Source: Opitutia bacterium
Lineage (GTDB): Bacteria > Verrucomicrobiota > Kiritimatiellia > CAIQIC01 > Lenti-01
Direction: 5' to 3'
Length of the DNA stretch: 64,000 nucleotides
Assembly: GCA_009928955.1 (NCBI GenBank)
Contig: SABN01000001.1
Span: forward strand, 11,994-75,993
Made by a program: the position numbers and the translations under genes. Below are positions 26,410 through 54,366 of the stretch, in pieces (positions within the stretch are counted from its first letter, which is position 1; each line of letters opens with the position of its first letter). The notes beneath the pieces were generated by a model. That model did not search any database. It saw nothing but the letters and a program-made list of their open reading frames with translations, and was not told the DNA's origin.

Positions 26410-26943
26410 CTAGCGCAACCGCTGTCCCTCGTAGGGCAACGCCACGGGCGGCGGCGGCGGCGGCGGCGGCACGTTCTTGCCGCCGCCCGGCGCGCCGGCG
26501 ATCGTCTGCATGGCCAGATTGAAGGCGTTGCCAAAGGCGCTCCCGACTTTCACATCTGAAAGCTCGATGATGGCCCGCTGGATGGCCGAGACGATGGCGG
26601 AGCTCATGCTGGCCGTTGGACTGGCGGCCACCGCCTTGGCCAGTTCGATGGCCAGCGCCGCCCAGTCGTCCTGCGGCATGGTCTGGAACGCATAGGTCAC
26701 GAGGGCGGCGATGCGCACGTCGCGATCCTTGGGCTTCAGGTCCAGCCCCAAGATCTGGATGATGACATCCTTGCCCACGATGGCGGCCTGCGGAATCGAG
26801 GCATCCCGCAACAAGACCACCACCTTCGCGGGGTTTTCCGCCGCCTCCCGGAGCTGGTCCCGGGTCGGCTCCACGAACACTCCGTATGCGCTTCCGGCCG
26901 CCAGACACGCCAGCAGGGTCACCCGCTTGATTTTCGCATTCAT
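26410..26943 (-). CDS. hypothetical lipoprotein with poly-Pro C-terminus
   Basis: It has a lipobox-like VTLLAC signal and the C-terminus GGGKNVPPPPPPPPVALPYEG. It lies 11 nt downstream of the OMP gene. Confidence 0.55.
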   Translation of the reverse strand: MNAKIKRVTLLACLAAGSAYGVFVEPTRDQLREAAENPAKVVVLLRDASIPQAAIVGKDVIIQILGLDLKPKDRDVRIAALVTYAFQTMPQDDWAALAIELAKAVAASPTASMSSAIVSAIQRAIIELSDVKVGSAFGNAFNLAMQTIAGAPGGGKNVPPPPPPPPVALPYEGQRLR

Positions 26944-26954
26944 CGTTCCGCCTC

Positions 26955-28283
26955 CTAATAGCGAATGTTCACGCCCAGGATCAGGCGCTTGTCCACATAC
27001 TCCACGAAATCGAAGTTGGAGGCCACTTCGTCGTAGGTGGCCTCCAGATAGATGCGGAGGAACTTGCCCGGCGCGATGTAATCGACGCGCGCATGCCCTT
27101 CCATGCGCTGGTCCCGCCGATCCTTGGTCACGCCTTCATGCGTCACGAGGTCCAGATAGTCGTCCTCCCGGTAGACGCCGCGCACATAGAAGGTGGTGCT
27201 GGGCTTCCATCGGTAGCCGAGCCCCGCCCAGCCGCTGATGTATTCCATCCCGTTGCCCTGGTAGAAGGACGACCATTGCGTCCCGTTGAAGCCGCCGCAG
27301 CGGAAGGTGAGCTTCTCCGTCATGAACCAATCCGCCGACGCATTGAAGTTGAACGAGATCTGGTCGTGGTCGATGCGGACGCCGGTTTCATCGATCTGGA
27401 CGTCCTCCTCGCCGATGTCCGCGTCTTCGAAGCGGGCCTGGAACGGGCGCGCATAGTATTCCAGCCCCCCCCCGACGCTGTAGACCACCTTGTCCGTGCC
27501 TTGGGCCTTGAGCCCCAGCCGCAGCGTGGTCAGTTCGGCCGCCCCATCGGTGCCTTCCTGGTATTGGAGACCTTGGCGAAGCGTCAGGAATGCGTCGGTC
27601 TTGTCCGTAAGCCCCAGCGAGCCGTCGAATTGCCAGATGTGTCCATCCAAATCCAGTCCGGGCGGGACCCCCAGATCCTTCGGATCGAGCCGGTCGTGCG
27701 TCTCGTTGTCGTAATGGACGCCGGAATAGCGGTAGGACAGCGCCAGTTCCAGCTTGTCCGATACGCGTCGCGAAAGGGAAGCGCCCAATTGGTTGACCTC
27801 GCGCTGGAGATCCAGCGTGTTGCTGTCTTCCACCATTTCCCCCGCCAAGTTGGAGGATTCGATGTCGGAGGAATGCCGGTCGAGGTCGTCGAGGGATCGA
27901 TAGCTTTGGATGAGTTCGAGCAGGGAGCGCCGCCCGTTGCCGTACCGCAAGATGAGGCTGTCCCCAAAAGTGTTGAGATTCCGGTTCTTCTCGGTGGTGT
28001 ATTCCCGCTCCGAATAGAACAAGTTCCCTTGGATGGAAAAACAATTGGTTTCCGACGAGGAGCTGAATTTCAATCCCAGCTCCGGCTCGAAAAAGGTGTC
28101 TTCGACCTCATCGAAGCGATCCTTGTAGACATTTGAATCGTAGGTGATGTTCAAATCCAGATAAGGACTGAAGACCCACGAAAAGAGGCCCACGCCATTG
28201 CCGGGACCGGCAAAGGCGTCGATCGACAGGCTCAGGAGCAGAAATACACCCAGCTTGCGCGCGCGATGTACACACGTGTGCAT
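26955..28283 (-). CDS. putative outer-membrane beta-barrel protein
   Basis: It has a signal peptide (KLGVFLLLSLSIDAFA) and alternating hydrophobic, Tyr/Gly-rich strands. The C-terminus is ...GVNIRY, with an aromatic last residue typical of OMPs. Confidence 0.6.
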   Translation of the reverse strand: MHTCVHRARKLGVFLLLSLSIDAFAGPGNGVGLFSWVFSPYLDLNITYDSNVYKDRFDEVEDTFFEPELGLKFSSSSETNCFSIQGNLFYSEREYTTEKNRNLNTFGDSLILRYGNGRRSLLELIQSYRSLDDLDRHSSDIESSNLAGEMVEDSNTLDLQREVNQLGASLSRRVSDKLELALSYRYSGVHYDNETHDRLDPKDLGVPPGLDLDGHIWQFDGSLGLTDKTDAFLTLRQGLQYQEGTDGAAELTTLRLGLKAQGTDKVVYSVGGGLEYYARPFQARFEDADIGEEDVQIDETGVRIDHDQISFNFNASADWFMTEKLTFRCGGFNGTQWSSFYQGNGMEYISGWAGLGYRWKPSTTFYVRGVYREDDYLDLVTHEGVTKDRRDQRMEGHARVDYIAPGKFLRIYLEATYDEVASNFDFVEYVDKRLILGVNIRY

Positions 28284-28375
28284 CCCATCATTTGGCACTT
28301 TCGCGGATTCGTTGTCAACAAACACTAGATTAAAAAGGAATAAAAAGCGCTCTATCCGCCCAAGACGGGCTGTTT

Positions 28376-30169
28376 TCAGGCCCGGGCGCGCAGGGCGAAC
28401 AGTCCGGCATAGACGCCGTTTGCTTGCACAAGCTGTTCATGCGCACCGGATTCCACGATCCGACCCTCCGAGAGGACGAGAATTCGGTCTGCGACTTGAA
28501 CGGTTGAAAAGCGGTGGCTGACCACGATGGAGGTCTTGCCGGCGAATATTTTCACAACCGATTCCAGCAATTGGCGTTCCGCCTTTGCATCCAGCGAGCT
28601 CGTCGGCTCGTCGAGCATCACGAAAGGCGCATCTCTCACAAAGGCCCGCGCCAGCGCCACCCGTTGCCACTGCCCCTCGCTGAGTTCCGATCCTCCCCCA
28701 AACAGCCGCCCCAATGGAGTGTCATATCCCGCCGGAAGCTGCTCGATCAGGCCGGCCGCCCCCCCCCGGCGCGCCGCCTCCGCAATCCGAGGATCCCCGG
28801 GCGGAATCGCGACATCGCCCATCCGCACATTTTCGCCGGCCGTCATCTGATACCGGACGAAATCCTGGAACAAGGCGCTGAACGAGGCCCGCAACGCCTC
28901 CAGGTCGAACTCCCGGATGTCCGTTCCATCGATCAGGATCCGGCCCCCGGTCGGATCGTACAGCCGGCACAGGAGCTTCACCAGCGTCGTCTTGCCCGAA
29001 CCGTTTTCGCCGACCAGCGCCACGTGCTCCCCCGCCCGGATGGTCAGGTCGAGGTCGCGCAACACATCCCGGTCCATTCCGGGATAGCGGAAGCGGACAT
29101 GCTCCAGCCGGATTCCCTGCGCGATCCGGGACGGCATCGGTTTCGGATGCTCCGGCGAACGGACGCGGAGCGGCAGCCCGAGGAAGCGGTAGAAATGGGA
29201 AATGAACAGCGAATCCTCATAGAGCGAGGCCAGACTGCCCAGCACCCCGGAAAAAGCGGATTTTCCCCGTTGGAATCCGCCATAGAGCAGCGCCAGATCG
29301 CCCAAGGTCATGGCGTTGCCCCGCATCCGCAGATAGACGATTCCCAAGCCCGCGACCATGGCCAGCATCGACAAGGCCTCCGCAACGAATTCGGCGCCGG
29401 CGCGATGCCGCGTCAGCGCCAGCCGGCTCCGGCGCAACCGCCCGCGCAACTCCCGGTGCTGCCGGCGCAGCTCGTTCCCATTCCCGCTCAAGCGGATTTC
29501 CTTGGCAAACGGCAGCGCGGTCAGCAACAGATGGAGATAGCCTGCATAGCGCTCGGCCGCGCTCTGGGAAATCCGCCAGCGATGCCAGCGCCGGGAATTC
29601 CAGATCCGCGCCAGCGCGCCCGGCAAGGCAGCGACGATCAAGACCGGCAGCAGCAGCCCCTGCGACACCCACAACACGCCCGCCACCGAACCCAGCGCGA
29701 TCGCGCCGCCCCCCAACTGCACCAGGTTCCGCACGATGCTCGTGGGGCGCGACATCGCCTCGGACTGCGCCATGCGCATCTGGTCGTGATAGGCAGAAGT
29801 CTCGTAGTACGCCAAATCCAGCTCGATGGATTTTTCCTGCATCGCGTCCTGCACGTGGTCCGACACCGCCGCCGACTGGGCGTCGGCGACGATGGACGAA
29901 AGGGCGCGGCAAATCCATCCGGCCAAGACCACGGCCCCCACCCCCGGCGCCAAGACCAGAAGGCCATGGACGTCGCGGGTCCCTTCCGTTTGCGCCAAGA
30001 ATCGGCCCGCCGCATCCACCACGTGGCGCGTCAAAACCAGCGCGGCCACCGGCAGCAATCCTTGCACCCCGATCACCAGCGCCTGAAGCAGCGTCCACCC
30101 CCGCGCGCTATCCCACACCAGGCGGACCGCTTGGCGCAAATGCCGCAATCTGTCGCGATGCTTCTTCAT
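28376..30169 (-). CDS. ABC exporter, fused permease/ATPase (MsbA/peptide-exporter type, no C39 peptidase domain)
   Basis: The in-frame ATG is at 30169 (MKKHRDRLRHL). It has a 6-TM domain followed by Walker A GENGSGKTT, LSEGQWQR and Walker B MLDEPTS. There is an ATGA overlap with the upstream gene. Confidence 0.9.
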   Translation of the reverse strand: MKKHRDRLRHLRQAVRLVWDSARGWTLLQALVIGVQGLLPVAALVLTRHVVDAAGRFLAQTEGTRDVHGLLVLAPGVGAVVLAGWICRALSSIVADAQSAAVSDHVQDAMQEKSIELDLAYYETSAYHDQMRMAQSEAMSRPTSIVRNLVQLGGGAIALGSVAGVLWVSQGLLLPVLIVAALPGALARIWNSRRWHRWRISQSAAERYAGYLHLLLTALPFAKEIRLSGNGNELRRQHRELRGRLRRSRLALTRHRAGAEFVAEALSMLAMVAGLGIVYLRMRGNAMTLGDLALLYGGFQRGKSAFSGVLGSLASLYEDSLFISHFYRFLGLPLRVRSPEHPKPMPSRIAQGIRLEHVRFRYPGMDRDVLRDLDLTIRAGEHVALVGENGSGKTTLVKLLCRLYDPTGGRILIDGTDIREFDLEALRASFSALFQDFVRYQMTAGENVRMGDVAIPPGDPRIAEAARRGGAAGLIEQLPAGYDTPLGRLFGGGSELSEGQWQRVALARAFVRDAPFVMLDEPTSSLDAKAERQLLESVVKIFAGKTSIVVSHRFSTVQVADRILVLSEGRIVESGAHEQLVQANGVYAGLFALRARA

Positions 30170-31392
30170 GGTCCGGGGGGGGCTTCCGCCAGGGAAATGC
30201 GCCGGGAACGGCCGCGCAACGCATCCCCCGCCAAACGGAAGGGACGGAGGCAGGCGTACAGCGGATAGAGGGCGCCCGGCAAGGCCATTTGGTTCAGTTC
30301 CACCGCGCCCGGCACGAACAGCAGGCGGGACAGGAAGCGCCAGCGATCCCGCATCCGCTCCCGGGTCTGGAGCGCGAAGCGGCTCTGCCGGACAATGCCT
30401 GTTTGAAGAGAAGTTTCCGCCAGCAACCGGGCCGCCGCCATCTCGGCCAAGCGGCGCGCCGCCGCATCCAGGCGCGATTCCGGCCGGAAGGCTTCGGGCA
30501 ACGGACACGCCAGCAGAATCTCCGCCAGTTGCGCGCCCACCCACAGGCTCCGCTTCTGCCCGAAGCGAGAAGCCTCCCGCAACAGGCCGGCCCAGTCCGC
30601 GCCGGGAAACGCCGACAACAACATGGCCGCATCGGCCACCGAGGAAAGCTTGGCCCACATTTCGTTGGCGCCATCCAGACAGACGGCCAGCAGCATCGCC
30701 TCCGGGCCGGGCGCCAAAAGACTCCGGCCCCCGTCCATCGCCAGCGGCCGGCAAGCCTGCGCCAGGAATTCGGCGGTGCGCGGCCCGGAAAGCGCGTGCG
30801 AAATCAAAACGGGCTTGAGATCCAAATGGAGCGCCTCCCCCGGCTTGCGCAGCGACCAATCCTGCAGCGACGCCAGATAGCGCGCCCGGCTGGCCGTGGA
30901 CGGAATCTCGCGGGGCACATATCCTTCCTGTTCCAGCAGGCCGACCGCGCGCAGCAAATCCTCCCGCCGCACGACGAGGTCCAGATCCTCGAACTGCCGC
31001 ATCGAGGGGCTGCCATAGGCCAGCAGGGCCAGCGCGGGACCCTTGATCGGCACCAGCCGGATCCCGTTCGCCTCCATGAGGCGTTGCAGCCGGTGCAGGG
31101 TGGCCGTCGCCCGGAGGTTGTGCGCGGCGATGGCCATGTAATCCCGATGGAAACAGGCCAGGAATTCGGCCGGGACGACCTCGGCCTTCCTCTTCGCCGC
31201 CGTCTTCAACGCCTGATAGGCCAAGGGAACCACATGGTGGTTCATGGCCAAGGTCCGGAGCCGAGATCCATCGACCGGTCGGCCGTGGAGCCATCCATCG
31301 GCCAAGGAGCCGGAACGAGCCGGGCGGGCGCAAGCGCAGAGCCACTCCATCTCGGCGCTTGGAACGCGCGGCATGGTCAGCGCCGTTCTCAT
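30166..31392 (-). CDS. uncharacterised nucleotidyltransferase family protein (NTP_transf_5-like)
   Basis: It reads LVPIKGPALALLAYGSPSMRQFEDLDLVVRREDL, typical of the family seen in lasso/RRE-associated clusters. There are ATGA overlaps at both ends. Confidence 0.7.
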   Translation of the reverse strand: MRTALTMPRVPSAEMEWLCACARPARSGSLADGWLHGRPVDGSRLRTLAMNHHVVPLAYQALKTAAKRKAEVVPAEFLACFHRDYMAIAAHNLRATATLHRLQRLMEANGIRLVPIKGPALALLAYGSPSMRQFEDLDLVVRREDLLRAVGLLEQEGYVPREIPSTASRARYLASLQDWSLRKPGEALHLDLKPVLISHALSGPRTAEFLAQACRPLAMDGGRSLLAPGPEAMLLAVCLDGANEMWAKLSSVADAAMLLSAFPGADWAGLLREASRFGQKRSLWVGAQLAEILLACPLPEAFRPESRLDAAARRLAEMAAARLLAETSLQTGIVRQSRFALQTRERMRDRWRFLSRLLFVPGAVELNQMALPGALYPLYACLRPFRLAGDALRGRSRRISLAEAPPGP

Positions 31393-32009
31393 CGGGTTGG
31401 CGGATCCAAGATCAGGTCGTACGGCTTGCGGCAAGTCCAGCGCTGCTCCCGCGGAATCCAGCAGGCGACCGTTTCTCCCCGATGGATGAACTTGGTGAAA
31501 TCCCCGGCGGCGCCGGCAAAGCGCGCCGCCAAGATCCGCGGCCGCCAGAGCAAGCGCATCAGCCGGCTGGCGCGGAACAGCCGATAGACCGGAGCCCAAG
31601 GAAACAGCAACAGGATCCGCAGGCGGCGCGCCCCATGGCCCAACCCGGCCCGGCGGCGGCCCGCAGGACCGCCCGCCACCGCGGCGCGAACGCCCCCGCG
31701 CTCGCGTTCCACCACCTTGCCGATCAGGAAGGCACGGGTGAGCGGCGCAGCATCGCGATGGAGATTCCCGTCGCCCCAGGTCAGGAATCCGTCGCCCGCC
31801 CTCTTCGCGATCCGGTGCGCGACGGCCTTGCCGGAGGAATGGAAGGCCACGACATCCCCCGGGCGCAGCGCGGCGAAGGAAACTGGAGAAACCCATAGGC
31901 AATCCCCGTCCACGAAAGTCCCCCGCATGCTTTCTCCGCGATAGGAAAGCCGGAGCAACTGCGAATGCGATGGGCGGGAAGCATCCATATGGGGTTCAAG
32001 CATACGCAT
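31389..32009 (-). CDS. S24/S26 (signal-peptidase/LexA-like) serine peptidase family protein
   Basis: It has the GESMRGTF (Ser nucleophile motif GxSMxPT-like), then GDVVAF...AHRI...TWGDGN...D...IGKVV. An extra C-terminal region of ~90 aa follows. Confidence 0.6.
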   Translation of the reverse strand: MRMLEPHMDASRPSHSQLLRLSYRGESMRGTFVDGDCLWVSPVSFAALRPGDVVAFHSSGKAVAHRIAKRAGDGFLTWGDGNLHRDAAPLTRAFLIGKVVERERGGVRAAVAGGPAGRRRAGLGHGARRLRILLLFPWAPVYRLFRASRLMRLLWRPRILAARFAGAAGDFTKFIHRGETVACWIPREQRWTCRKPYDLILDPPTR

Positions 32010-32197: not shown

Positions 32198-32617
32198 CTA
32201 TTCGATCGGCTCCGGCGGCTCGTCGTATCCCGCCGGTTCCGGCGGCTCGCCGTATCCCGCCGGTTCCGGCGGGGCCGGATATTCATATCCGGACGGCTCC
32301 GGATACGAAGAGGTTTCATACCCGCCATCCTCCGTCCCGGAGGCGGCCGCAACGCCGAAGCCCGAACCCGACAGACAGTACACCTTGGCGCTGCTTCCGG
32401 CGGGCCAGCAAAACGTGCCCGCGCTCGATCCCGTCCGGCAGTCGTTGGCCGCGCTCGCCCCATTGGGCTCGCAGATGGGAATCGATGCATTGTTCATCCC
32501 GGCCGGGCAATCCGCCGCGCCATCCCCGACGCTGCAGGTGTCGCCCAAGATCGGCGCCACCCGCCCCATGTCGATGCTGACGGGTTTTTCGTATTTGAGG
32601 CGCGGTTTTTCGGACAT
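32198..32617 (-). CDS. Cys-rich acidic 139-aa protein; candidate RiPP precursor (PqqA/lasso-like leader, six-Cys core, PEPxGY tail repeats)
   Basis: A strong RBS precedes the ATG. The leader is MSEKPRLKYEKPVSIDMGRVAPILGDT. Cys residues sit at 28, 37, 49, 60, 70 and 81. The tail is YPEPSGYEYPAPPEPAGYGEPPEPAGYDEPPEPIE. Confidence 0.6.
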   Translation of the reverse strand: MSEKPRLKYEKPVSIDMGRVAPILGDTCSVGDGAADCPAGMNNASIPICEPNGASAANDCRTGSSAGTFCWPAGSSAKVYCLSGSGFGVAAASGTEDGGYETSSYPEPSGYEYPAPPEPAGYGEPPEPAGYDEPPEPIE

Positions 32618-32631: not shown

Positions 32632-32715
32632 CAACTTGCGTTTTCTACCACATTCCATCGGCGGACGGCAACTGATCCTTTGGCCCCTCTGCCATATCCA
32701 GACATTCCGGATCCC

Positions 32716-45373: not shown

Positions 45374-45416
45374 TGACCGGCGGAAGAACCCCGAGAAGAA
45401 CTTTCCGCCTGTTCAA

Positions 45417-45445: not shown

Positions 45446-45708
45446 AGTTTATACGATTAAATTATGGTTAAAGAATAGTTTCGAAATTGTTAGATCTTTA
45501 TCCACATCTTTCACTCGCGCAGCGAGGTGCGCGCCCACCGGCTTTAATGATGTCCTAATGTTTCTTCAGACCTTAACGCTGGAAACCATCGATATCTGTT
45601 TTTAGGCTTTTTATCCCATTTTCACTTCTTTTTGCGGTTTTTTTCCATTTTTCACTGTTTTTTACAAATTTATCGATTTTTTGATTGATGATGCAAACGG
45701 AAAATTTG

Positions 45709-45749
45709 ATGAAAAAATGCGGAACCAATTGAAAATCAAGTGGTTCCGC
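45709..45749 (-). terminator. rho-independent terminator ending the long minus-strand operon
   Basis: A 9-bp perfect stem (gcggaacca / tggttccgc) with a 13-nt loop is followed on the minus strand by ATTTTTTC. It lies 56 nt after the HprK-like stop. Confidence 0.65.
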
Positions 45750-45804
45750 AATTCATTCTCCAAGCCGCTTTCATTGGGGCGGCGGAAGCTCTCAACCATG
45801 GAAA

Positions 45805-47585: not shown

Positions 47586-48205
47586 GCGGAGGTCTCCACC
47601 ACGCCGATGAACCCCTTTTTCAAGAGGGATCCGATGAATTCATCCACGTCCTTCTCCACTTGGGCGCGAGCCGTTCCCTCGCAGACTTCGCACAGGTGCG
47701 CCACCACCTCGGCCTGCGTGCGGGGCGCCGCCAAAAACGTCCAGATGGCCACCGCGACGGGATTGATGACCTCGATCGAATCCGTGTCCGGATTGAACAA
47801 GATCCCCCCGTCGTCGTCCTCCTGGCGGAAGGAGACATCGGGATTCACCAGGAATTTCGCTGCATTCATCGGCTCCGGCCTTTCCATTTTCAAATCCACC
47901 ACCCGCCGGACGATGCCGTGGCGCTCCATTTCCCGCAGCGCCTCGGCGATCGGCGCCAGCATCTCGCGCGCCGGAACCCCGCATCCGGCGGCGACCGCCC
48001 AGGCAATATCCTGCACCGTCCGCTCCCCGTCAAGGAGCTCCAGCAATTGTTTCGACCGTCCGTTGACTTCGCGCAAGTGAAGGGAGTCGCAGAGCAACAC
48101 CAGCGACCGGTCCCCGAAGTCTTCGATCGCGGTGTCGTCCCGAAGCCTGAAGCGCAGGTGACAGGGGTCAGGAGACCGGGGACAGGAAGAATCAGTCATG
48201 GCCAC
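47582..48205 (-). CDS. tandem PqqD-family (two RRE-like domains) protein
   Basis: Two PqqD-like halves are present. The first runs DFGDRSLVLLCDSLHLREVNGRSKQLLELLDGERTVQDI. The second runs FRQEDDDGGILFNPDTDSIEVINPVAVAIWTFL...EVVAHL. The first ~14 codons lie in the cassette inverted repeat, so the start is uncertain (GTG 48205 or ATG 48199). Confidence 0.75.
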   Translation of the reverse strand: MAMTDSSCPRSPDPCHLRFRLRDDTAIEDFGDRSLVLLCDSLHLREVNGRSKQLLELLDGERTVQDIAWAVAAGCGVPAREMLAPIAEALREMERHGIVRRVVDLKMERPEPMNAAKFLVNPDVSFRQEDDDGGILFNPDTDSIEVINPVAVAIWTFLAAPRTQAEVVAHLCEVCEGTARAQVEKDVDEFIGSLLKKGFIGVVETSA

Positions 48206-48665
48206 ACAGGAAAGGAGTTGGCGCCTTAATCATGGAGCCTATCATTTTTCCAACTTCACGGTTGAGCGCTATCAAAACGCGATGCTCATCGGGAGTCAAG
48301 CAGCCACAGTCCCGCGTGAAATCGAGCGCGGTATCCGTTTCGTTGTTTTCGCCGTCGCAATCGGTCAGCTTGGACACAAAATGCGCCTCATATCTACCCT
48401 TAGCCCAAGCCTCGCGGAGGTTCAGACAAACTGAGCGGGAAGATCGGCGAATCTGGCTGGTCAGCGCGAATCTCGCTTCTGCAGGAAACCGTTTGGAGCA
48501 TTCGAATACCCGCATCGCCAAATCATATGCCTTCTGGTAAACGGTAAGATCTTTAATGGTCTGCACAGCCATGGCGGTCGCCTGTCTCCGATTTCCTGTC
48601 CCGCCCCCCCTGTTCCCCGTCCCCGGTCGCCTGTTTCCTGACTGCCTCCTGTCCCCGGTCTCCTG
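48169..48665 (-). mobile_element. 497-bp cassette: four-helix-bundle gene bracketed by a 19-bp inverted repeat (IVS-like insertion)
   Basis: Segment 48169-48187 (caggagaccggggacagga) is the exact reverse complement of 48647-48665. There are extra direct copies of ccccggtc[g/t]cctgtttcctg at 48618-48640 and 48650-48672. Confidence 0.45.
48192..48572 (-). CDS. four-helix-bundle protein (23S rRNA intervening-sequence protein / Avd-like family)
   Basis: It reads DLTVYQKAYDLAMRVF...QIRRSSRSVCLNLREAWAKGRY.AHF.SKL, the family signature. GC is visibly lower than in the neighbours. Confidence 0.88.
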   Translation of the reverse strand: MAVQTIKDLTVYQKAYDLAMRVFECSKRFPAEARFALTSQIRRSSRSVCLNLREAWAKGRYEAHFVSKLTDCDGENNETDTALDFTRDCGCLTPDEHRVLIALNREVGKMIGSMIKAPTPFLCGHD

Positions 48666-50070
48666 TTTCCTGGAGGAACCGCCGATAACAGCAATCCGGA
48701 TTGGCCACGTACAAATCGCCGGTGCGGGTGTATTCGACGGCCGGGCACCCCCCGCTGCAGTACGGAATCCATTCGCAGCCCGCGCAACCCGGCACCCGGT
48801 CCATCGGGATGCGCCCGCGCCCGCGCATTTCCTTCAGCAGCGGATGATCCTGCCAGATGGCGCGGACGGGCGTCTCGCCGATCCTTCCCAGCGAGGCGGC
48901 CGCCAGCATGTTGCAGGGAACGATCATGCCGTCGTGGTGGACCGCCAGCTTGGCGAACATGCATCCGCAGGAGGAAAGGCATCCCATCTTCCAGCGGCGG
49001 CAGGGTTGCCCGGTGGCCTTGGCCTCCTCCATCTCCCGGAACATGTGCCACAGGGCCAACGATCCGGCCGTGGCCTGGATGCGCCCCGGATAGGTCTTCT
49101 CCAGCCGCGCCAGCGTCTTCATCGCGACCGGCCGCTGTTCCGGAGTCAGCCCGATGCGGTCCTGATTCGAGCATCCCGTCCCCATGGCCATCGCATCGTT
49201 GGTGCCGATCCGCGCCAGCCCGATTTCGTCGAGCAGCAGCCGGACCGTGTTGTCCAGATCGTCCACGTTGTGCCGGTTGACCGTCACGCGGGCCGTCGCC
49301 GGAAAACCCGCCGCCTTCAGCAGCCGCAACCCGCGGATCGCCTTCTCGAAACTGCCTTTTCCCCGGGAAGCGTCGTGGACCGCCGCGCAGGAACCATCGA
49401 TCGAGATCTGGATCGAGTCCATCCGCCGGTGGCGCCCCCGCTCCCTGAACCGGTCCAGCGTCTCCTCCGTGATCCGCGTGCCGTTCGACAGGATGCCGTA
49501 GCGCATGCGGGCCGCCACGAGGCCGTCGATCAGTCGCCACACGTCGTCCCGCATGAAGAGTTCGCCGCCGCTGAGCGTCAGGCTCCGCACGGCCAGGGTT
49601 TTCAACTCGGCGAAAAAGGCCAGCCATGTCTCGGCGGGGAGATCCCGCCGCCCCGCCATCTCATCGGCGTAGTAGCAATAGGCGCACCCCAGATTGCACC
49701 GGCCGGTCAGGGAAAGGTCCAAGCTCCGCGGCGCCTCGTGGAGCCATGAATGTTCTTCCGGCGGAAGCGGCTTCGGACTTGGGGCGCCGGCGGCGGCGGC
49801 ATAGCCGCCGCGCTTCAGCTCGTCCGCGAACGAGGCGGCATCCGCCCGGATTTCATCCGTCACGGGAATTTCAAACCGGCGGGCCAGCGCGGCGGCCAGG
49901 TCCTCCGTCCGCGCCCTTCCGTCCATGGCGTCCCAGAGCATCCGCCCCGAGGCGTTGATCACCTTCTCCCGGCCCGTGTCCGGATCGAAGAGAATGGCGT
50001 TGTCCCCCTCCCGGCAGACGGAAATCTGCGGCTTCCGGAACCAAAAAGCCGTGGGTTCCGGAGGACTCAT
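48553..50070 (-). CDS. radical SAM/SPASM peptide maturase with N-terminal PqqD/RRE-like domain
   Basis: The N-terminus is ISVCREGDNAILFDPDTGREKVINASGRMLWD (PqqD-like). It has the CNLGCAYC motif and a SPASM region ending ...CCYRRF. The last ~37 codons (ETGDRG...) are encoded by cassette repeats. ATGA overlaps the upstream sugar dehydratase stop. Confidence 0.88.
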   Translation of the reverse strand: MSPPEPTAFWFRKPQISVCREGDNAILFDPDTGREKVINASGRMLWDAMDGRARTEDLAAALARRFEIPVTDEIRADAASFADELKRGGYAAAAGAPSPKPLPPEEHSWLHEAPRSLDLSLTGRCNLGCAYCYYADEMAGRRDLPAETWLAFFAELKTLAVRSLTLSGGELFMRDDVWRLIDGLVAARMRYGILSNGTRITEETLDRFRERGRHRRMDSIQISIDGSCAAVHDASRGKGSFEKAIRGLRLLKAAGFPATARVTVNRHNVDDLDNTVRLLLDEIGLARIGTNDAMAMGTGCSNQDRIGLTPEQRPVAMKTLARLEKTYPGRIQATAGSLALWHMFREMEEAKATGQPCRRWKMGCLSSCGCMFAKLAVHHDGMIVPCNMLAAASLGRIGETPVRAIWQDHPLLKEMRGRGRIPMDRVPGCAGCEWIPYCSGGCPAVEYTRTGDLYVANPDCCYRRFLQETGDRGQEAVRKQATGDGEQGGRDRKSETGDRHGCADH

Positions 50071-51965
50071 GCCGGCGGGGCGGACGGGGCCGGCGTGTAT
50101 TCCGGCGCGATTTCCTTCAGGGAAGCCTTGATCCGCGCCGCGTCGAACGTGCTGGCCTCCGCCACCAGCCGGTCCACTTGGCCGCGGATGCGCCGGTCGA
50201 ATTCGGCGGCTTCCGCATCGCGGGTGCGCTTGAGCACCATGATCTTCTCGTGCGCCGTTTCCACGATGCCTTCGCCATGGGTGATGAGCTCCTCGTAGAG
50301 CTTCTCGCCCGGCCGCAGGCCGGAATACACGACCTGGATGTCCTGGTCGGGAACCTTGCCGGACAGCCGGATCATGTCCCGGGCCATGTCCGCGATCCGC
50401 ACCGGCGTGCCCATTTCCAAGATGAAGATTTCACCGCCCTCGCCCATTGCGCCCGCCTGCAGGATCAGCTGGCAGGCTTCGGGGATCATCATGAAATAGC
50501 GCGTCATCTCCGGATGCGTCACCGTCACCGGTCCGCCATCCTGGATCTGCTGCTGGAACAGGGGGATCACCGACCCGGAGGATCCCAGCACGTTCCCGAA
50601 ACGCACGGCCATGAACCGGGTTTTGCCGGGCGCGCGCGCCTGCAGGAGGATTTCCGCCACCCGCTTGCTGGCGCCCATCACGCTGGTCGGCCGGACGGCC
50701 TTGTCCGTCGACACCTGCACGAAGCGCTCGACCCCGAAGGCCTCCGCCACCTCCATCATCACCCGGCTGCCGGTCACGTTGTTGAGCACGGCCTCCCACG
50801 GATTCAATTCGACCATCGGCACATGCTTGCAGGCCGCGGCATGGAACAGCACGTGCGGACGAAACCGGTCGAAGATGTTCTCCATCAATGCCCGGTCCTG
50901 GACCCGGCCCAGGACGGGATGCAAGGCTTCGAACCGGTTCTCGGTCCGCAGCTCCATTTCAATCTGATACAGGTTGAATTCGTTGGCCTCGATCAAGACG
51001 AGGGCCCCCGGATTGAATCGCAAAATCTGCCGGCACAGCTCCGAACCGATGGAGCCGCCCGCGCCCGTCACCGCCACCGTCTTGCCGGTCAGGCAGCGCC
51101 CAATCCCCGCATAGTCCAGTTGCACCGGAGACCGGCCCAGGATGTCTTCGTACTTCACTTCCCGGACATCGCTGACCGTGACCTTGCCATCGACCAGGGA
51201 GCCCAGCGACGGCAGCGTCTTGAACGGCAGCCCCGACGCCTTGCAGGCGCTGACGACCTGCCGCATGTCGTTGCCCACCACCGAGGGCATGGCGATCAGG
51301 ATTTCATCGGCCTGGAAGCGGCTCACGAAAAACAGCAACCGGCTGATCGGCGCGCGCACCGGCACTTCCAGCAGCGTCTGCCCATGCTTGCGGACATCGT
51401 CGTCCACGCACGCCACCACGTCGTAGCGCGAACGCGGATTCCCCTGGATTTCCCGGATGATGCTGGCCGCCGCATCCCCCGCCCCGAGGATCAGCAGGCG
51501 GACTTGCCGGACCGGCAGGCTGTCGTCGTCGTCGCGGTTCCAGAACTTCAGCAAGGACCCCTGCTTCGTGCACAGCATCCGGATGCCGATCCGGAATCCC
51601 CCGCAGAAAAACAGCGTGAAGATGCAGTCCGCCAGAAAGACGGACCGCGGATATCCCTTGAACTGCTGGAGGATGGTCAAGCCGGTCATCAGGGTCAACG
51701 TGGCCAGCGCCGAGGCCTTGGCCAACCGCAGGGCGTCGGGAATGCTTGTATACCGCCACATGCCGCGGTAAACCCCTGCCGCGAGGAAAACCAGCGCCTT
51801 CACCGGCAAGAGCCACGGAAGGAGGAAGAGGATTCGCCGCCACTCCACCGCCGGAATGTCCAAGGAAAAGCGGATGGAGTAGGCCAAGATCAGCGAGGCG
51901 GCGAAAAACGCCAGATCCGCGCCCAGAATCACGTAGAAATTTCGGTTTTTGAATTGCTGAAGCAT
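50067..51965 (-). CDS. membrane-bound UDP-sugar 4,6-dehydratase (CapD/PglF/WbpM family polysaccharide biosynthesis protein)
   Basis: The start is at MLQQFKNRNFYVIL (ATG 51965). It has 4 N-terminal TM segments, two Rossmann motifs (LILGAGDAA, VTGAGGSIG) and the STDKAV motif. Confidence 0.88.
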   Translation of the reverse strand: MLQQFKNRNFYVILGADLAFFAASLILAYSIRFSLDIPAVEWRRILFLLPWLLPVKALVFLAAGVYRGMWRYTSIPDALRLAKASALATLTLMTGLTILQQFKGYPRSVFLADCIFTLFFCGGFRIGIRMLCTKQGSLLKFWNRDDDDSLPVRQVRLLILGAGDAAASIIREIQGNPRSRYDVVACVDDDVRKHGQTLLEVPVRAPISRLLFFVSRFQADEILIAMPSVVGNDMRQVVSACKASGLPFKTLPSLGSLVDGKVTVSDVREVKYEDILGRSPVQLDYAGIGRCLTGKTVAVTGAGGSIGSELCRQILRFNPGALVLIEANEFNLYQIEMELRTENRFEALHPVLGRVQDRALMENIFDRFRPHVLFHAAACKHVPMVELNPWEAVLNNVTGSRVMMEVAEAFGVERFVQVSTDKAVRPTSVMGASKRVAEILLQARAPGKTRFMAVRFGNVLGSSGSVIPLFQQQIQDGGPVTVTHPEMTRYFMMIPEACQLILQAGAMGEGGEIFILEMGTPVRIADMARDMIRLSGKVPDQDIQVVYSGLRPGEKLYEELITHGEGIVETAHEKIMVLKRTRDAEAAEFDRRIRGQVDRLVAEASTFDAARIKASLKEIAPEYTPAPSAPPA

Positions 51966-52059
51966 AGGGAAAACCACTTTTACCCGAACTCCGGAGTCGC
52001 CGCTTCCGAACAACCGAGGATTATACGTCCCCCTCTCCCCCGAAAACAACAGGGAAATA

Positions 52060-52497
52060 TCAGCGGGGGGGGATTTCCCGGTTTTGGAGAAACCGCCCCA
52101 TCCCCCACCAGAACCCGACGGCCCCGACCCCGTTGGCGACCGCATCGGCCCAGCTGAACGTCCGGACCCCGCCGCGGAGGGTCAACTGGAGGATTTCCAT
52201 CAGCAGCCCATAGCCGATGGCCGCCGCCGGCAGAAGCCAGCGGGGCGATCTGGCCTCTTCCAGCTCGGCCGCCCAGCGGAACAAGGCCCCCAGAACCCCG
52301 TACATCGCCACATGCGCCCACTTGTCCGCCCCGGGAATCTGGGCCAGGGACGGGGGGAACCGCCATGCCGGAAGGAGGGAAAGCACGGCGATCAGCGCCA
52401 TATGGATGGCGCACGCCCAGCGGCGAAATCCGGTCGGCACCGCCAGCAATCGGATTCGCCACCGTTGCAGAAAGGATCTGGGCTGCTGCTGCGCCAC
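52060..52497 (-). CDS. VanZ-like family membrane protein
   Basis: It is a small 4-TM protein with DKWAH and SWADAVAN motifs, typical of VanZ-like proteins. Confidence 0.65.
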   Translation of the reverse strand: MAQQQPRSFLQRWRIRLLAVPTGFRRWACAIHMALIAVLSLLPAWRFPPSLAQIPGADKWAHVAMYGVLGALFRWAAELEEARSPRWLLPAAAIGYGLLMEILQLTLRGGVRTFSWADAVANGVGAVGFWWGMGRFLQNREIPPR

Positions 52498-52516
52498 GGT
52501 TCCCCTCCCCTGCCGA

Positions 52517-53653
52517 TCAGGGCCGCCGACTCCGGACGATATCGCACACGCGGTCCAGATCGGCGTCCGTCATCGCGGTTCCCGAGGGCAGGCAAAGGCC
52601 TTGCGCGAACAATTTCTCGCTGACCGCCTCCTGTCCTTTCCGGAACGAGCAGCCCTTGAACACCGGCTGCAGATGCATGGGTTTCCACACCGGCCGGGCC
52701 TCGATGTTTTCGGCTTCCAGCGCCTCCCGCACCGCATGCGTATCCGCCCCGAACGCCGCCGGATCGATCAACGCCACCGTCAGCCACCGGTTGCTCCGGC
52801 ATCCTGCGGGTTCCGGCATGAAGGAAAGTCCCGGCAACCCGCCCAAGCGCGCCTGGTATCCGGCAGAGATTTCGCGCTTCCGCTGGACGCGCTCGTCCAG
52901 AACCTCGAGCTGTCCGCGGCCGATGGCCGCCAAGATGTTGCTCATCCGGTAGTTGAACCCGATCTCCGTGTGCTCGTACCACGGCGCAGGATCGCGGGCT
53001 TGCTGGGATAGCTTCCTCGCGTGGTCGATCAATTCCGTGTCGTGCGAGGCCAGCATCCCCCCGCCGGACGTCGTCATGATCTTGTTCCCGTTGAAGGAAT
53101 ACACCGCCGCCCACGCATCGGCACCGGCGTGCCGCTCCTGGATCCTCGCCCCCATCGCCTCGGCCGAATCGCAGAGCACCGGAATGCCATGGCGGTCGCA
53201 AATCGCCCGGATCCGGGGCAGGTCGCAGGGTTGCCCATACAGGTCGGTCGGAATCACCGCCTTGGGCAATTTTCCGCGCCGGGCCGCGGCATCAATGGCT
53301 TGCTCCAGCAGCGCCGGATCCATGTTCCAGCTCGATTCGTCGCAGTCGATGAACACCGGCTCGGCGCCTTGGAACGTCACCGGCGTGACGCTGCCGATGA
53401 ACGTCAGCGTCGACGCCATCACCTCGTCGCCGGGACCCACGCCCAGATGGCGCAACGCCAGATGGGTCGCCGCGGTGCCGCTGGACAGCGCCACGCAATG
53501 CGGAAGGCCCGTATAGGCGGAAAATTCCTTCTCGAACGCATCCACCATCGGCCCCAGCGGCGCGATGTAGTTCGACGCGAACGCCTGCCGGACGAAGTCC
53601 GGCTCGCGGCCCCCCATGTGCGGAGGCGAAAGAAACAGCCGTGGATTTTTCAT
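52517..53653 (-). CDS. DegT/DnrJ/EryC1/StrS (PglE-like) sugar aminotransferase
   Basis: The start is at MKNPRLFLSPPHMGG. It reads SSGTAATHLAL and SFNGNKIMTTSGGGM, which contains the PLP Lys. Confidence 0.9.
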   Translation of the reverse strand: MKNPRLFLSPPHMGGREPDFVRQAFASNYIAPLGPMVDAFEKEFSAYTGLPHCVALSSGTAATHLALRHLGVGPGDEVMASTLTFIGSVTPVTFQGAEPVFIDCDESSWNMDPALLEQAIDAAARRGKLPKAVIPTDLYGQPCDLPRIRAICDRHGIPVLCDSAEAMGARIQERHAGADAWAAVYSFNGNKIMTTSGGGMLASHDTELIDHARKLSQQARDPAPWYEHTEIGFNYRMSNILAAIGRGQLEVLDERVQRKREISAGYQARLGGLPGLSFMPEPAGCRSNRWLTVALIDPAAFGADTHAVREALEAENIEARPVWKPMHLQPVFKGCSFRKGQEAVSEKLFAQGLCLPSGTAMTDADLDRVCDIVRSRRP

Positions 53654-53679
53654 GGCGTCAGCATCCTTTGTCCATCCCA

Positions 53680-54366
53680 TCAGTAGCGCATGGCTTCCTG
53701 CTCCATGCGAGCGGAAAATCCGGCGTAATCCAAGCCCAGGCGAGCCTCCCACCCCATGCGCCTCACCGCGCCGGGGAACACCGTCGCCAGCACGTATCCG
53801 ATGTCGCGCCAGAAGGAGCCGGCCACCATATATTCCCGGTTGATCCGCAGCTTCTCGGGATAGACCACCGCGTCGTTGAACGCCTTCGGATCCCGCGCCA
53901 GCGCCAACAGGCGCTCCTCGTCCCGGAACAGCAGCGTCGCGGGGCCGGTGATGCCGGGAAGCAATTCGAGGACGACGCGGTCTGCGCCTTCCAGTCGGTC
54001 CGCATAGCCGGGCACGTCGGGCCGCGGCCCGACGAACGACATCCGCCCCGTCAGCACGTTCCACAATTGCGGCAATTCGTCCAGCTTCCACCGGCGCAGG
54101 AACCGCCCGACCGGCGTGACCCGGAAATCCGCCGCCGTCGTGACCGATCCGTGCGCATCCGCCCCCACCCGCATCGTCCGGAACTTCACGCATCGGAAAG
54201 CTTTTCCATGTCGTCCCACGCGCATCTGGATGAACAGCGCCGGCCCGGGCGAGGTCGCGCGAACCGCCATGGCCACCAGGAGCATGATCGGCGACAACAG
54301 GACAAGCCCCGCGAAGGCGGCCGCAAAATCAAAAACCCGCTTGGGAATCCACCATCGCTTGTTCAT
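53680..54366 (-). CDS. small undecaprenyl-phosphate sugar phosphotransferase (PglC/WbaP C-terminal type)
   Basis: It reads KRVFDFAAAFAGLVLLSP, KFRTM, DELPQLWNVLTGRMSFVGPRP. The start is at MNKRWW (ATG 54366). Confidence 0.88.
   Translation of the reverse strand: MNKRWWIPKRVFDFAAAFAGLVLLSPIMLLVAMAVRATSPGPALFIQMRVGRHGKAFRCVKFRTMRVGADAHGSVTTAADFRVTPVGRFLRRWKLDELPQLWNVLTGRMSFVGPRPDVPGYADRLEGADRVVLELLPGITGPATLLFRDEERLLALARDPKAFNDAVVYPEKLRINREYMVAGSFWRDIGYVLATVFPGAVRRMGWEARLGLDYAGFSARMEQEAMRY

What the first reader, a model, noticed from the sequence alone, without database searches (positions are those of the whole stretch)
26410..54366. RiPP-like genes are fused to a glycan operon and split around a 12.7-kb adhesin gene
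Seen: the first rSAM start codon overlaps the stop of the PglF/CapD-like sugar dehydratase (ATGA, 50067-70). The peptide-maturase genes are therefore the 3' end of the same minus-strand unit that starts beyond 64000. Other overlaps in that unit lie at 54363-66, 57011-14, 59294-97 and 63326-29. The candidate precursor and its processing/export genes lie on the same strand, but only after a terminator, an AT-rich promoter island and the giant adhesin gene.

Inference, three possibilities:
- The peptide is glycosylated or otherwise decorated by the glycan pathway. The HprK-like kinase and nucleotidyltransferase could supply a phospho-linkage.
- The adhesin gene was inserted into an ancestral contiguous cluster.
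- The adhesin, peptide and EPS form one surface-matrix programme.

None of these is a described system to my knowledge.
Basis: inference. Interest (0 to 1): 0.7.

Follow-up and report, generated by a model that had tools for sequence, protein, structure and literature searches.

The report
Split peptide-maturation cluster in glycan operon
A radical-SAM peptide-maturation system sits at the end of a surface-sugar operon and was cut in two by a giant surface-protein gene in one bacterial lineage; it is a new variant of a catalogued but untested gene cassette, and its peptide substrate appears in neither protein-family library searched.

Summary
All the stop/start overlaps exist, although 59294-97 is GTGA rather than ATGA. 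The terminator hairpin and the AT-rich promoter island also exist. One correction: the "12.7-kb gene" carries a +1 frameshift at a T5 run (42141-42145), which relatives lack.

The rSAM module is a divergent relative of the SynChlorMet (Scm) cassette, with ScmE, a tandem PqqD protein, ScmF and the HprK-fold ScmC. The 139-aa ORF is its precursor. It has a near-invariant 27-aa leader, six CxxG-spaced cysteines and a variable acidic tail, and it hits no Pfam or NCBIfam model.

All 24 species-level genomes with this precursor also carry ScmE. In six non-Kiritimatiellia genomes the precursor lies beside the Scm genes with no giant gene. In 18 Kiritimatiellia genomes the giant gene sits exactly between ScmC and the precursor. 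One contiguous Kiritimatiellia contig keeps a 50-codon scar of the giant gene, so it is a secondary deletion. The insertion hypothesis is therefore supported.

The glycan link is conserved. The PglF-stop/ScmE-start ATGA is found in 14 of 14 relatives. The nucleotidyltransferase-containing Scm variant lies inside polysaccharide loci in several different architectures.

Decoration of the peptide with sugar is plausible, by analogy with the HprK plus nucleotidyltransferase pair of pseudomycoidin, but it is untested.

The parts
52060..63970 (-). Upstream glycan genes. In order: an unknown 214-aa ORF, a formyltransferase-like gene, a deacetylase-like gene, the second four-helix-bundle insert (61209-61589), an unknown gene of about 640 aa, a FemAB-family XrtA/PEP-CTERM-associated protein, a GT4 glycosyltransferase, an unknown 596-aa gene, an XrtA-type polysaccharide deacetylase, a small PglC-like phosphoglycosyltransferase, a DegT/PglE-like aminotransferase and a VanZ-like gene.
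   Evidence: Pfam and NCBIfam scans. GC3 frame analysis. Overlaps verified. Terminator-like sites are not enriched: 11 found against 11.8 expected.
50067..52145 (-). PglF/CapD-like UDP-sugar 4,6-dehydratase. The real start is probably near 51968. Its stop overlaps the ScmE start.
   Evidence: Polysacc_synt_2, E 1.3e-116. Relatives are 633 aa and align from query residue ~59. ATGA at 50067-70.
48553..50070 (-). ScmE-like radical SAM/SPASM maturase with a fused N-terminal PqqD (RRE) domain.
   Evidence: TIGR04250 scores 381.8 bits against a cutoff of 400. Pfam PqqD, Radical_SAM and SPASM all hit. The nearest solved structures are SkfB and PqqE.
48192..48572 (-). Low-GC four-helix-bundle gene (23S rRNA IVP / bAvd-like). 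It is a variable insert, not a core component.
   Evidence: PF05635, E 6e-28. GC3 is 0.575 against about 0.85 for neighbouring genes. It is present in some relatives and absent in others.
47582..48205 (-). ScmD-like protein with two PqqD/RRE-like stretches.
   Evidence: PF05402, E 1.4e-18, two stretches. TIGR04248 scores 53.5 bits against a cutoff of 100.
46410..47585 (-). ScmF-like radical SAM/SPASM maturase.
   Evidence: TIGR04251 scores 341.6 bits against a cutoff of 400.
45805..46413 (-). ScmC-like P-loop protein with an HPr-kinase-like fold. It has a Walker A motif, GHSTAGKST.
   Evidence: The precomputed Pfam hit for the identical protein is PF27840. The AlphaFold model has pLDDT 88.3. 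The best Foldseek hits are HprK/P catalytic domains, E 7e-5, TM 0.43-0.50.
45712..45749 (-). Intrinsic-terminator-like hairpin with a U-tract, lying after ScmC.
   Evidence: dG -25.3 kcal/mol, z -5.25.
45374..45804 (-). AT-rich intergenic island (39% GC) with a sigma-70-like promoter at 45445-45417. A motif is shared with relatives at about 45475-45435.
32716..45373 (-). Giant secreted surface-protein gene with SdrD_B, DUF11/CLIPPER, Peptidase_C25, MBG and F5/8-type-C domains. It is interrupted by a +1 frameshift at 42141-42145.
   Evidence: Pfam scan. Frameshift mapped against relatives. Intact orthologues of 3523-4646 aa occupy the same position.
32642..32671 (-). Promoter-like motif (TTGCC-N17-TGGTAGAAA) just upstream of the precursor. 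It is also present in relatives.
   Evidence: No significant hairpin lies between the giant-gene stop and the precursor.
32198..32617 (-). Precursor peptide. It has the leader MSEKPRLKYEKPVSIDMGRVAPILGD, a core with Cys at positions 28, 37, 49, 60, 70 and 81, mostly as CxxG, and a P/E/Y/G-rich tail of about 51 aa.
   Evidence: 120 homologues. The alignment shows an invariant leader and a variable core and tail. There are 110 clusters at 50% identity, nearly all of 58-140 aa. It lies next to Scm genes in outgroups. It hits no Pfam or NCBIfam model. There is a single copy in the window.
31389..32009 (-). S24/S26 (SipW/archaeal-type) peptidase without an N-terminal membrane anchor. It is the candidate leader peptidase.
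   Evidence: Peptidase_S24 E 3.4e-5; TIGR02228 E 2.3e-11, below its cutoff. The motifs GxSMxGTF, HRI/V and GDxN are conserved in 15 orthologues, along with a C-terminal domain.
30166..31392 (-). PF14907 "uncharacterised nucleotidyltransferase", with an EDLDL (DxD) motif.
   Evidence: PF14907, E 1.5e-45. Frame analysis. ATGA couplings on both sides.
28376..30169 (-). ABC exporter, a half-transporter with no C39 peptidase domain.
26955..28325 (-). BBP2-family outer-membrane beta-barrel.
   Evidence: PF10082, E 6.8e-6. It is conserved after the ABC gene in Kiritimatiellia. In a Desulfobacterales locus it lies next to Wza/Wzc.
26410..26943 (-). 177-aa putative lipoprotein with an LLAC lipobox and a poly-Pro tail. 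It is the last gene of the cluster; LysRS follows.
   Evidence: Sequence. Conserved in Kiritimatiellia loci. LysRS identified.

Best explanation
The region holds one ribosomal-peptide maturation system. It is a nucleotidyltransferase-containing variant of the SynChlorMet (Scm) radical-SAM cassette, built into a polysaccharide locus and physically split in this lineage.

Shown:
- The 139-aa ORF belongs to a conserved family of small proteins with an almost invariant leader and a variable Cys-rich core.
- Across phyla that family sits next to ScmE, ScmD, ScmF and ScmC, an S26-like peptidase and an ABC exporter.
- In one Kiritimatiellia clade a giant surface-protein gene with its own promoter region lies between ScmC and the precursor's own promoter-like motif.
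- The maturase genes are translationally coupled to the PglF-like sugar dehydratase, and this coupling is conserved.

Inferred mechanism:
1. The PqqD/RRE domains bind the leader.
2. ScmE and ScmF install cross-links on the six-Cys core, most likely thioethers.
3. ScmC phosphorylates a Ser or Thr.
4. The PF14907 enzyme adds a sugar-containing group to that phosphate, drawing on the neighbouring nucleotide-sugar pathway.
5. The S26-like peptidase removes the leader.
6. The ABC exporter, BBP2 barrel and lipoprotein carry the product to the cell surface.

After the insertion the maturases are expressed with the glycan operon, which ends at a terminator. The precursor and export genes are expressed from their own promoter, from read-through of the giant gene, or both.
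For: One system:
- All 24 of 24 GTDB species genomes with the precursor also carry ScmE.
- The precursor is contiguous with the Scm genes in L005, L008, L108-L112, L114/L116, L117, L118, L132, L137, L162, L173, L175, L176 and L178.
- The alignment shows leader/core architecture.

Insertion:
- 18 Kiritimatiellia species have the giant gene directly upstream of the precursor.
- ScmC is followed by the giant gene in 9 loci.
- One relative contig (L010 plus L011) shows the whole split arrangement.
- L007 carries a scar of the giant gene.
- The giant-bearing loci form one clade in the ScmE tree.

Glycan coupling:
- The ATGA junction is found in 14 of 14 relatives.
- Nucleotidyltransferase-positive loci carry PglF, a phosphoglycosyltransferase, Wza or Wzc in several architectures.
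- Across 58 assemblies, nucleotidyltransferase presence against glycan genes in view gives counts of 20, 8, 2 and 28. The odds ratio is 35 and Fisher p is 3e-7. The assemblies are not phylogenetically independent.

Enzyme roles:
- for family assignments.
- for the ScmC fold.
- for the peptidase motifs.
- The kinase plus nucleotidyltransferase precedent comes from PMC6993621 and PMC8498205.
Against: - There are no transcript or chemical data.
- All four Scm best hits fall below NCBIfam's curated cutoffs, so this is a divergent subfamily.
- The C-terminal Ser acceptor used by the lasso-peptide kinases is absent, and precursor C-termini are not conserved.
- No residue separates precursors of nucleotidyltransferase-positive loci from those of nucleotidyltransferase-negative loci.
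- Whether PsmN belongs to PF14907 was not tested.
- The giant gene is frameshifted in this sequence.
- Nearly all comparative data come from metagenome bins with short contigs.
- L162 lacks the giant gene yet groups inside the Kiritimatiellia clade in a rough NJ tree.
Confidence: 0.72

Rival explanations
1. The peptide system and the glycan pathway are functionally linked, but not covalently. The cross-linked peptide would be a secreted matrix component, a signal, or a regulator or chaperone of exopolysaccharide production. In this reading ScmC and the nucleotidyltransferase act on the glycan or on a lipid carrier, not on the peptide.
For: - The Scm genes are embedded between Wzx and a phosphoglycosyltransferase on one side and BBP2, Wza and Wzc on the other in a Desulfobacterales genome.
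- Wza and Wzc lie downstream in L108.
- BBP2 barrels accompany polysaccharide export genes.
- No conserved acceptor residue was found in the precursor.
Against: - ScmC belongs to the core cassette even in loci with no glycan genes, so it most likely acts on the peptide.
- The only characterised pairing of an HprK homologue with an uncharacterised nucleotidyltransferase acts on a peptide (PMC6993621).
Confidence: 0.25
2. The co-location with glycan genes is genomic hitch-hiking with no shared function. The 4-nt overlaps would reflect operon compaction only, and both halves would simply be kept by the strong synteny of this clade.
For: - ATGA overlaps are common in compact operons, and there are at least nine such junctions here.
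- Synteny extends into housekeeping genes (LysRS, LolC) in several relatives.
- Scm cassettes in Aminicenantes and Clostridia show no glycan genes in view.
Against: - The link recurs with different gene orders and different neighbours in separate lineages: PglF-ScmE, VanZ-ScmE, phosphoglycosyltransferase-nucleotidyltransferase-ScmE, and ScmC-Wzc-PglF.
- It tracks the presence of the nucleotidyltransferase.
Confidence: 0.15
3. The giant surface protein is a working part of the system and not a passenger. For example, its C25 protease domain might process the peptide, or the peptide might bind or cap the adhesin. The precursor would then be co-transcribed with it on purpose.
For: - The giant gene lies directly upstream of the precursor in 18 of 18 Kiritimatiellia species.
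- No terminator-like structure lies between the giant-gene stop and the precursor.
Against: - Outgroups run the same system with no such gene.
- L007 lost the giant gene and kept the rest of the cluster.
- The precursor keeps its own promoter-like motif.
- The C-terminal domains of the giant protein vary between species.
- The gene is frameshifted here.
Confidence: 0.1

Closest known systems
SynChlorMet (Scm) cassette: NCBIfam/TIGRFAMs TIGR04248 ScmD, TIGR04249 ScmC, TIGR04250 ScmE, TIGR04251 ScmF; Pfam PF27840 ScmC
   Same: The four core genes are the same. Each has its best NCBIfam hit to the matching Scm model. Orthologues in other samples are named ScmE by JGI and NCBI. The identical ScmC protein carries PF27840.
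   Different: - All four scores fall below the curated equivalog cutoffs.
- This variant adds a PF14907 nucleotidyltransferase, an S26-like peptidase, an ABC exporter, a BBP2 barrel and a lipoprotein.
- It is translationally coupled to a sugar dehydratase.
- It is split by a 12.7-kb gene.
- The precursor family found here matches no library model.
- No paper mentioning the cassette was found.
Tailoring of Firmicutes lasso peptides by an HPr-kinase homologue and a nucleotidyltransferase (paeninodin PadeK; pseudomycoidin PsmK and PsmN)
   Same: An HprK-fold kinase and an "uncharacterised nucleotidyltransferase" sit in one RiPP cluster together with a PqqD-type recognition element and an ABC exporter. 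In pseudomycoidin the pair installs phosphate and then one or two hexoses (PMC6993621, PMC8498205).
   Different: - There is no lasso cyclase or B2 protease here.
- The maturases are two rSAM/SPASM enzymes.
- The precursor lacks the C-terminal Ser acceptor.
- It was not tested whether PsmN and the window protein belong to the same family.
Thioether-forming rSAM/SPASM RiPPs (sactipeptides and ranthipeptides, such as SkfB and the PapB/freyrasin type)
   Same: A Cys-rich repeat core, PqqD/RRE recognition and SPASM-domain radical SAM enzymes. The nearest solved structure to ScmE is SkfB. The NCBIfam hit list includes sactipeptide and ranthipeptide maturases at a lower rank.
   Different: - Sequence identity is low.
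- There are two different rSAM enzymes.
- The precursors are much longer (60-140 aa), with a CxxG repeat and, in Kiritimatiellia, a long acidic tail.
- The type of cross-link is unknown.
XrtA/PEP-CTERM-type exopolysaccharide loci
   Same: The FemAB-family XrtA/PEP-CTERM-associated protein scores above its cutoff. An XrtA-type deacetylase-like gene, GT4 genes and a small phosphoglycosyltransferase are also present.
   Different: No exosortase and no PEP-CTERM protein were seen in the window. To my knowledge such loci are not described as carrying radical-SAM peptide-maturation genes; this rests on my own knowledge and was not searched exhaustively.

Membership tests
SynChlorMet cassette | ScmE equivalog (TIGR04250, cutoff 400 bits) | tested here: not met
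   It is the best hit, but at 381.8 bits it falls just below the cutoff. Orthologues with 52-81% identity are named ScmE by JGI or NCBI.
SynChlorMet cassette | ScmF equivalog (TIGR04251, cutoff 400 bits) | tested here: not met
   Best hit, 341.6 bits.
SynChlorMet cassette | ScmD PqqD-family protein (TIGR04248, cutoff 100 bits) | tested here: not met
   Best NCBIfam hit, 53.5 bits. Pfam PqqD is above its own cutoff, with two stretches.
SynChlorMet cassette | ScmC protein (TIGR04249, cutoff 125 bits; Pfam PF27840) | tested here: inconclusive
   TIGR04249 scores 35.8 bits, below the cutoff. The identical protein carries a precomputed PF27840 hit, and the predicted fold matches HprK/P.
SynChlorMet cassette | The four genes are adjacent in one cassette | tested here: met
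   They occupy 45805-50070 with overlapping stops and starts. The only interruption is a small variable insert.
RiPP (ribosomally synthesised, post-translationally modified peptide) cluster | A short precursor with a conserved leader and a variable core, encoded beside the maturases | tested here: met
   Alignments. Adjacent in outgroups, and 13.2 kb away here.
RiPP (ribosomally synthesised, post-translationally modified peptide) cluster | The peptide is actually modified by the encoded enzymes | not testable with these tools
   This needs expression and mass spectrometry.
Phospho-glycosylated RiPP of the pseudomycoidin type | HPr-kinase homologue in the cluster | tested here: met
   Foldseek top hits are HprK/P, E 7e-5, probability 1.00, with a Walker A motif. 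The Pfam Hpr_kinase_C hit is only weak, E 5e-4.
Phospho-glycosylated RiPP of the pseudomycoidin type | PsmN-type nucleotidyltransferase | tested here: inconclusive
   PF14907, E 1.5e-45. PsmN is described only as an "uncharacterised NTP transferase". No direct comparison was possible.
Phospho-glycosylated RiPP of the pseudomycoidin type | C-terminal Ser acceptor on the precursor | tested here: not met
   The window precursor ends in ...PEPIE, and C-termini are not conserved across the family.
Phospho-glycosylated RiPP of the pseudomycoidin type | Lasso cyclase and B1/B2 proteins | tested here: not met
   No such domains appeared in any gene of the cluster.
XrtA/PEP-CTERM exopolysaccharide locus | FemAB-family XrtA/PEP-CTERM-associated protein (TIGR03019, cutoff 260.35 bits) | tested here: met
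   281.3 bits.
XrtA/PEP-CTERM exopolysaccharide locus | Exosortase XrtA and PEP-CTERM substrates | not tested
   None was seen among the ORFs scanned. The operon continues beyond 64000, and two attempts to fetch the source contig failed.

The most novel reading that the evidence does not exclude
The cross-linked Scm peptide is covalently joined to a sugar or oligosaccharide made by the flanking polysaccharide pathway. The link would run through a phosphate installed by ScmC and a transfer catalysed by the PF14907 enzyme. The product would be a ribosomal peptide-glycan conjugate, either a phosphoglycosyl-RiPP or a peptide that primes or anchors exopolysaccharide, and it would be exported through the ABC/BBP2 route. 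In Kiritimatiellia its precursor would be co-expressed with a giant adhesin.
Probability: 0.22. Interest if true: 0.85.

Novelty: new variant of a known kind. Interest (0 to 1): 0.55.

Why it matters
- It assigns a precursor family, a candidate leader peptidase and an exporter to an orphan radical-SAM cassette. That cassette is catalogued in the family libraries, but no paper mentioning it was found.
- It shows that one sub-type of the cassette, the one with a PF14907 nucleotidyltransferase, is repeatedly built into exopolysaccharide loci in unrelated lineages. In Kiritimatiellia it is coupled codon-to-codon to a nucleotide-sugar dehydratase. This makes a concrete and testable case for a peptide-glycan link, and Kiritimatiellia surface biology is poorly known.
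- It is a cautionary example for cluster-mining tools. Here the precursor lies 13 kb from its maturases, behind a terminator and a giant unrelated gene.

Tried and rejected
- The literature search for "SynChlorMet" gave 0 papers. A search on the TIGR accession numbers and on ScmE/ScmF returned only single-cell-software noise. A search combining rSAM, SPASM, HPr kinase and PqqD gave 0 papers. A search on PF14907 gave one irrelevant paper.
- A genome scan with the ScmE alignment was swamped by a generic radical-SAM motif. Only 4 of 80 loci were true orthologues. It was replaced by a scan on the precursor leader and by a ScmE-specific TNDAM[PA]MG DNA pattern.
- Two attempts to fetch the window's own contig beyond 64000 failed because no exact product is on record. 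The start of the operon and the presence of an exosortase therefore remain unknown.
- Rfam found no RNA family anywhere in the window.
- No direct or inverted repeats flank the giant gene, so no insertion mechanism is visible.
- No hairpin beyond chance lies between the giant-gene stop and the precursor (z -1.46).
- Sequence search of solved structures gave nothing for ScmC or for the nucleotidyltransferase.
- A comparison of precursors from nucleotidyltransferase-positive and nucleotidyltransferase-negative loci found no discriminating acceptor residue.
- I considered that the ABC exporter and barrel might be a type I secretion system for the giant protein, and rejected it. There is no membrane-fusion protein, the giant protein has an N-terminal signal peptide, and the exporter accompanies the peptide in outgroups that lack the giant gene.

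Full report
**Gene map**

The window is about 67% GC, so the mechanical ORF list is full of spurious long frames. Third-position GC analysis and profile scans give the following minus-strand order:

- Glycan genes, 63970 down to 52060.
- PglF/CapD-like dehydratase, 50067-52145.
- ScmE-like rSAM/SPASM with a fused PqqD domain, 48553-50070.
- A small low-GC four-helix-bundle gene, 48192-48572.
- A tandem-PqqD protein, 47582-48205.
- ScmF-like rSAM/SPASM, 46410-47585.
- ScmC-like protein, 45805-46413.
- A 431-nt AT-rich gap.
- A giant surface-protein gene, 32716-45373.
- The 139-aa ORF, 32198-32617.
- An S24/S26-like peptidase, 31389-32009.
- A PF14907 nucleotidyltransferase, 30166-31392.
- An ABC exporter, 28376-30169.
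- A BBP2 beta-barrel, 26955-28325.
- A 177-aa putative lipoprotein, 26410-26943.

Housekeeping genes follow: LysRS and LolC-like genes, and further on a dcw cluster.

**Checking the observation**

- The ScmE start codon is the right one. Sixteen homologues align from the same first residue, and the length difference lies at the C-terminus.
- The two modules are also coupled internally, at 47582-85, 46410-13, 31389-92 and 30166-69.
- After ScmC there is a strong hairpin with a U-tract at 45749-45712 (dG -25.3, z -5.25).
- The 39%-GC island carries a sigma-70-like site at 45445-45417.
- Terminator-like sites are not enriched between 50000 and 64000.

There are four corrections:

- The giant gene reads in two frames here, because of one extra T in a T5 run at 42141-42145. 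Four relatives read DSFTFYVSTNGF straight through.
- The nucleotidyltransferase sits in the downstream module, not the upstream one.
- The PglF-like protein probably starts about 59 codons later than the ORF does.
- The ORF 59294-61435 overlaps a second four-helix-bundle gene.

**What the 139-aa ORF is**

It has 120 homologues at E <= 0.01, mostly from Kiritimatiellia bins. None carries a name or a Pfam domain. An exhaustive profile search finds 110 clusters at 50% identity, and nearly all are 58-140 aa long.

The alignment shows a textbook precursor layout:

- Residues 1-27 (MSEKPRLKYEKPVSIDMGRVAPILGD) are almost invariant across phyla.
- A variable core follows, with cysteines every 9-12 residues, mostly as CxxG. 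The window protein has six, at positions 28, 37, 49, 60, 70 and 81.
- Kiritimatiellia add a low-complexity acidic tail rich in Pro, Glu and Tyr.

Neither Pfam nor NCBIfam has a model that hits it.

**Are the two modules one system?**

A leader-based scan of one genome per species found 24 loci. I mapped these and other loci with tblastn, using the window's proteins as queries.

- In 18 Kiritimatiellia-type species the giant gene lies directly upstream of the precursor.
- Wherever the far side is visible, ScmC precedes the giant gene. This holds for nine loci.
- One relative contig shows the whole split arrangement, including the glycan genes and the PglF/ScmE overlap.
- In the other six species (Victivallales, Desulfobacterota, unclassified) and in several metagenome contigs, the precursor sits among or right after the Scm genes with no giant gene.
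- The Victivallales locus reads ScmE-PqqD-ScmF-ScmC-precursor-peptidase-nucleotidyltransferase-ABC. This is the window's order with a 377-nt gap where the window has 13.2 kb.
- All 24 precursor-bearing genomes also carry ScmE, so the modules do not segregate independently.
- More distant Scm cassettes (Aminicenantes, Clostridia and others) carry divergent members of the same precursor family beside ScmC.

**Polarity of the rearrangement**

In a rough neighbour-joining tree of ScmE, the giant-bearing loci form one clade nested among giant-less ones. There are two exceptions inside that clade:

- L007 is contiguous, but between ScmC and the precursor it keeps the last ~50 codons of the giant protein (54% identity, E 1e-8). 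It is a secondary deletion.
- L162 is labelled a delta-proteobacterial bin. It is contiguous and has no scar, and this remains unexplained.

The giant gene has native-like composition and no flanking repeats, so the insertion is old. The region upstream of the giant gene shares a motif across relatives. The precursor keeps a TTGCC-N17-TGnTAnnn motif about 40-60 nt upstream of its ATG, in both split and contiguous loci. The insertion therefore fell between the maturase operon's end and the precursor's own promoter.

**The glycan link**

- The PglF-stop/ScmE-start ATGA is present in 14 of 14 Kiritimatiellia-type relatives.
- A Desulfobacterales chromosome has Wzx, a large phosphoglycosyltransferase, the nucleotidyltransferase, then VanZ overlapping ScmE by ATGA, the remaining Scm genes, the ABC gene, BBP2, Wza and Wzc.
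- A Desulfosudaceae genome has the phosphoglycosyltransferase and the nucleotidyltransferase upstream.
- L008 has a Bac_transf gene and DegT genes upstream, with Wzc and PglF downstream.
- L111 and L112 read GT4-DegT-PglF-(nucleotidyltransferase)-ScmE. L108 has Wza and Wzc downstream.
- Scm loci without the nucleotidyltransferase (Aminicenantes, Clostridia and others) show no glycan genes in view.
- Over 58 assemblies the association between the nucleotidyltransferase and glycan genes is strong (counts 20, 8, 2, 28; odds ratio 35; p 3e-7).

Two caveats apply to that last figure. Many of the points are related Kiritimatiellia, and the flanks in view are short.

**Enzyme roles**

- ScmE and ScmF are SPASM-type peptide-modifying radical SAM enzymes. 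The closest solved relatives are SkfB and PqqE.
- ScmC carries PF27840. Its model (pLDDT 88) best matches HprK/P catalytic domains.
- The peptidase keeps the SM, HR and GDxN motifs of SipW/archaeal-type signal peptidases, has no N-terminal anchor, and has a conserved C-terminal domain of its own.
- In lasso peptides an HprK homologue phosphorylates the precursor's C-terminal Ser. In pseudomycoidin an uncharacterised nucleotidyltransferase then adds one or two hexoses to that phosphate. This is the only experimental precedent for the pair.

**Verdict**

The finding is genuine. The "split" is a lineage-specific insertion into a single peptide-maturation system. That system is a new variant of the catalogued but uncharacterised SynChlorMet cassette, and its precursor family matches no Pfam or NCBIfam model. 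The conserved embedding in polysaccharide loci is the most interesting part and is testable. Covalent decoration of the peptide by the glycan pathway remains an inference; I put it at about one in four to one in five.

Noticed in passing
window 42141-42145 (minus strand T5 run): One extra T splits the giant surface-protein gene into two overlapping frames, 41480-45373 and 32716-42102. Four relatives read through in one frame. It could be an assembly error, a pseudogene or a phase-variable homopolymer.
   Followed up: partly
window 48192-48572 and 61209-61589: Two paralogous four-helix-bundle (23S rRNA IVP / bAvd-like) genes sit inside the operon. They share 51% aa identity. The first has a GC3 of 0.575 and the second lies in the operon's lowest-GC kilobase. 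The first is present in some relatives and absent in others, so it behaves like a small mobile insert.
   Followed up: partly
L007 5735-6133: A PDDEXK_3-family gene is inserted between ScmF and ScmC in this relative. This is another small variable insert in the same cassette.
   Followed up: no
L007 6742-6891: A 50-codon remnant of the giant protein's C-terminus lies between ScmC and the precursor. It marks a near-complete deletion of the giant gene, including its AT-rich promoter island.
   Followed up: yes
window 47582-48205: The stand-alone PqqD protein has two PqqD-like stretches. Together with the PqqD domain fused to ScmE, the cluster encodes three putative leader-recognition domains.
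   Followed up: no
window 31389-32009 and orthologues: The S26-like peptidase family has a conserved C-terminal domain of about 90 aa (YRLxRAS...WRPRI...TKFIHRGRTVA.W.P...RW.CRKPYDL) with no Pfam match. It may be a leader-binding module.
   Followed up: partly
window about 45475-45435: A motif (AATTTAAT-CGTAyA...TTTGC) upstream of the giant gene is shared with most of the relatives compared. It overlaps the predicted -35 region and may be a regulator-binding site.
   Followed up: partly
window 55726-55785 and 59802-59861: A 60-nt repeat at 77% identity links the two large unknown glycan-operon genes, 55224-57014 and roughly 59294-61200. This suggests they are paralogues. Neither has a clear Pfam family.
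   Followed up: no
L118 16537-21443; L111 9193-14488; L112 11728-16262: Some genomes carry a second, divergent Scm-like cassette next to the first. One of these includes an rSAM-ScmC fusion protein and a second CxxG-type precursor with a different leader.
   Followed up: no
L117 18404-21443: In a Desulfosudaceae genome the BBP2 barrel that follows the Scm ABC exporter is fused to DUF11/CLIPPER repeats. The same stalk domain is found in the Kiritimatiellia giant protein.
   Followed up: no
window 1663-4158 (+): An unrelated 831-aa radical SAM protein (Radical_SAM_N2 plus Radical_SAM) lies among housekeeping genes far from the cluster.
   Followed up: no
L162 (bin labelled delta proteobacterium): This locus is contiguous, with PglF-ScmE-...-precursor and no giant gene and no scar. 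Yet its ScmE (74% identity) groups inside the Kiritimatiellia clade in a rough tree. The cause could be horizontal transfer, mis-binning or a clean loss.
   Followed up: no
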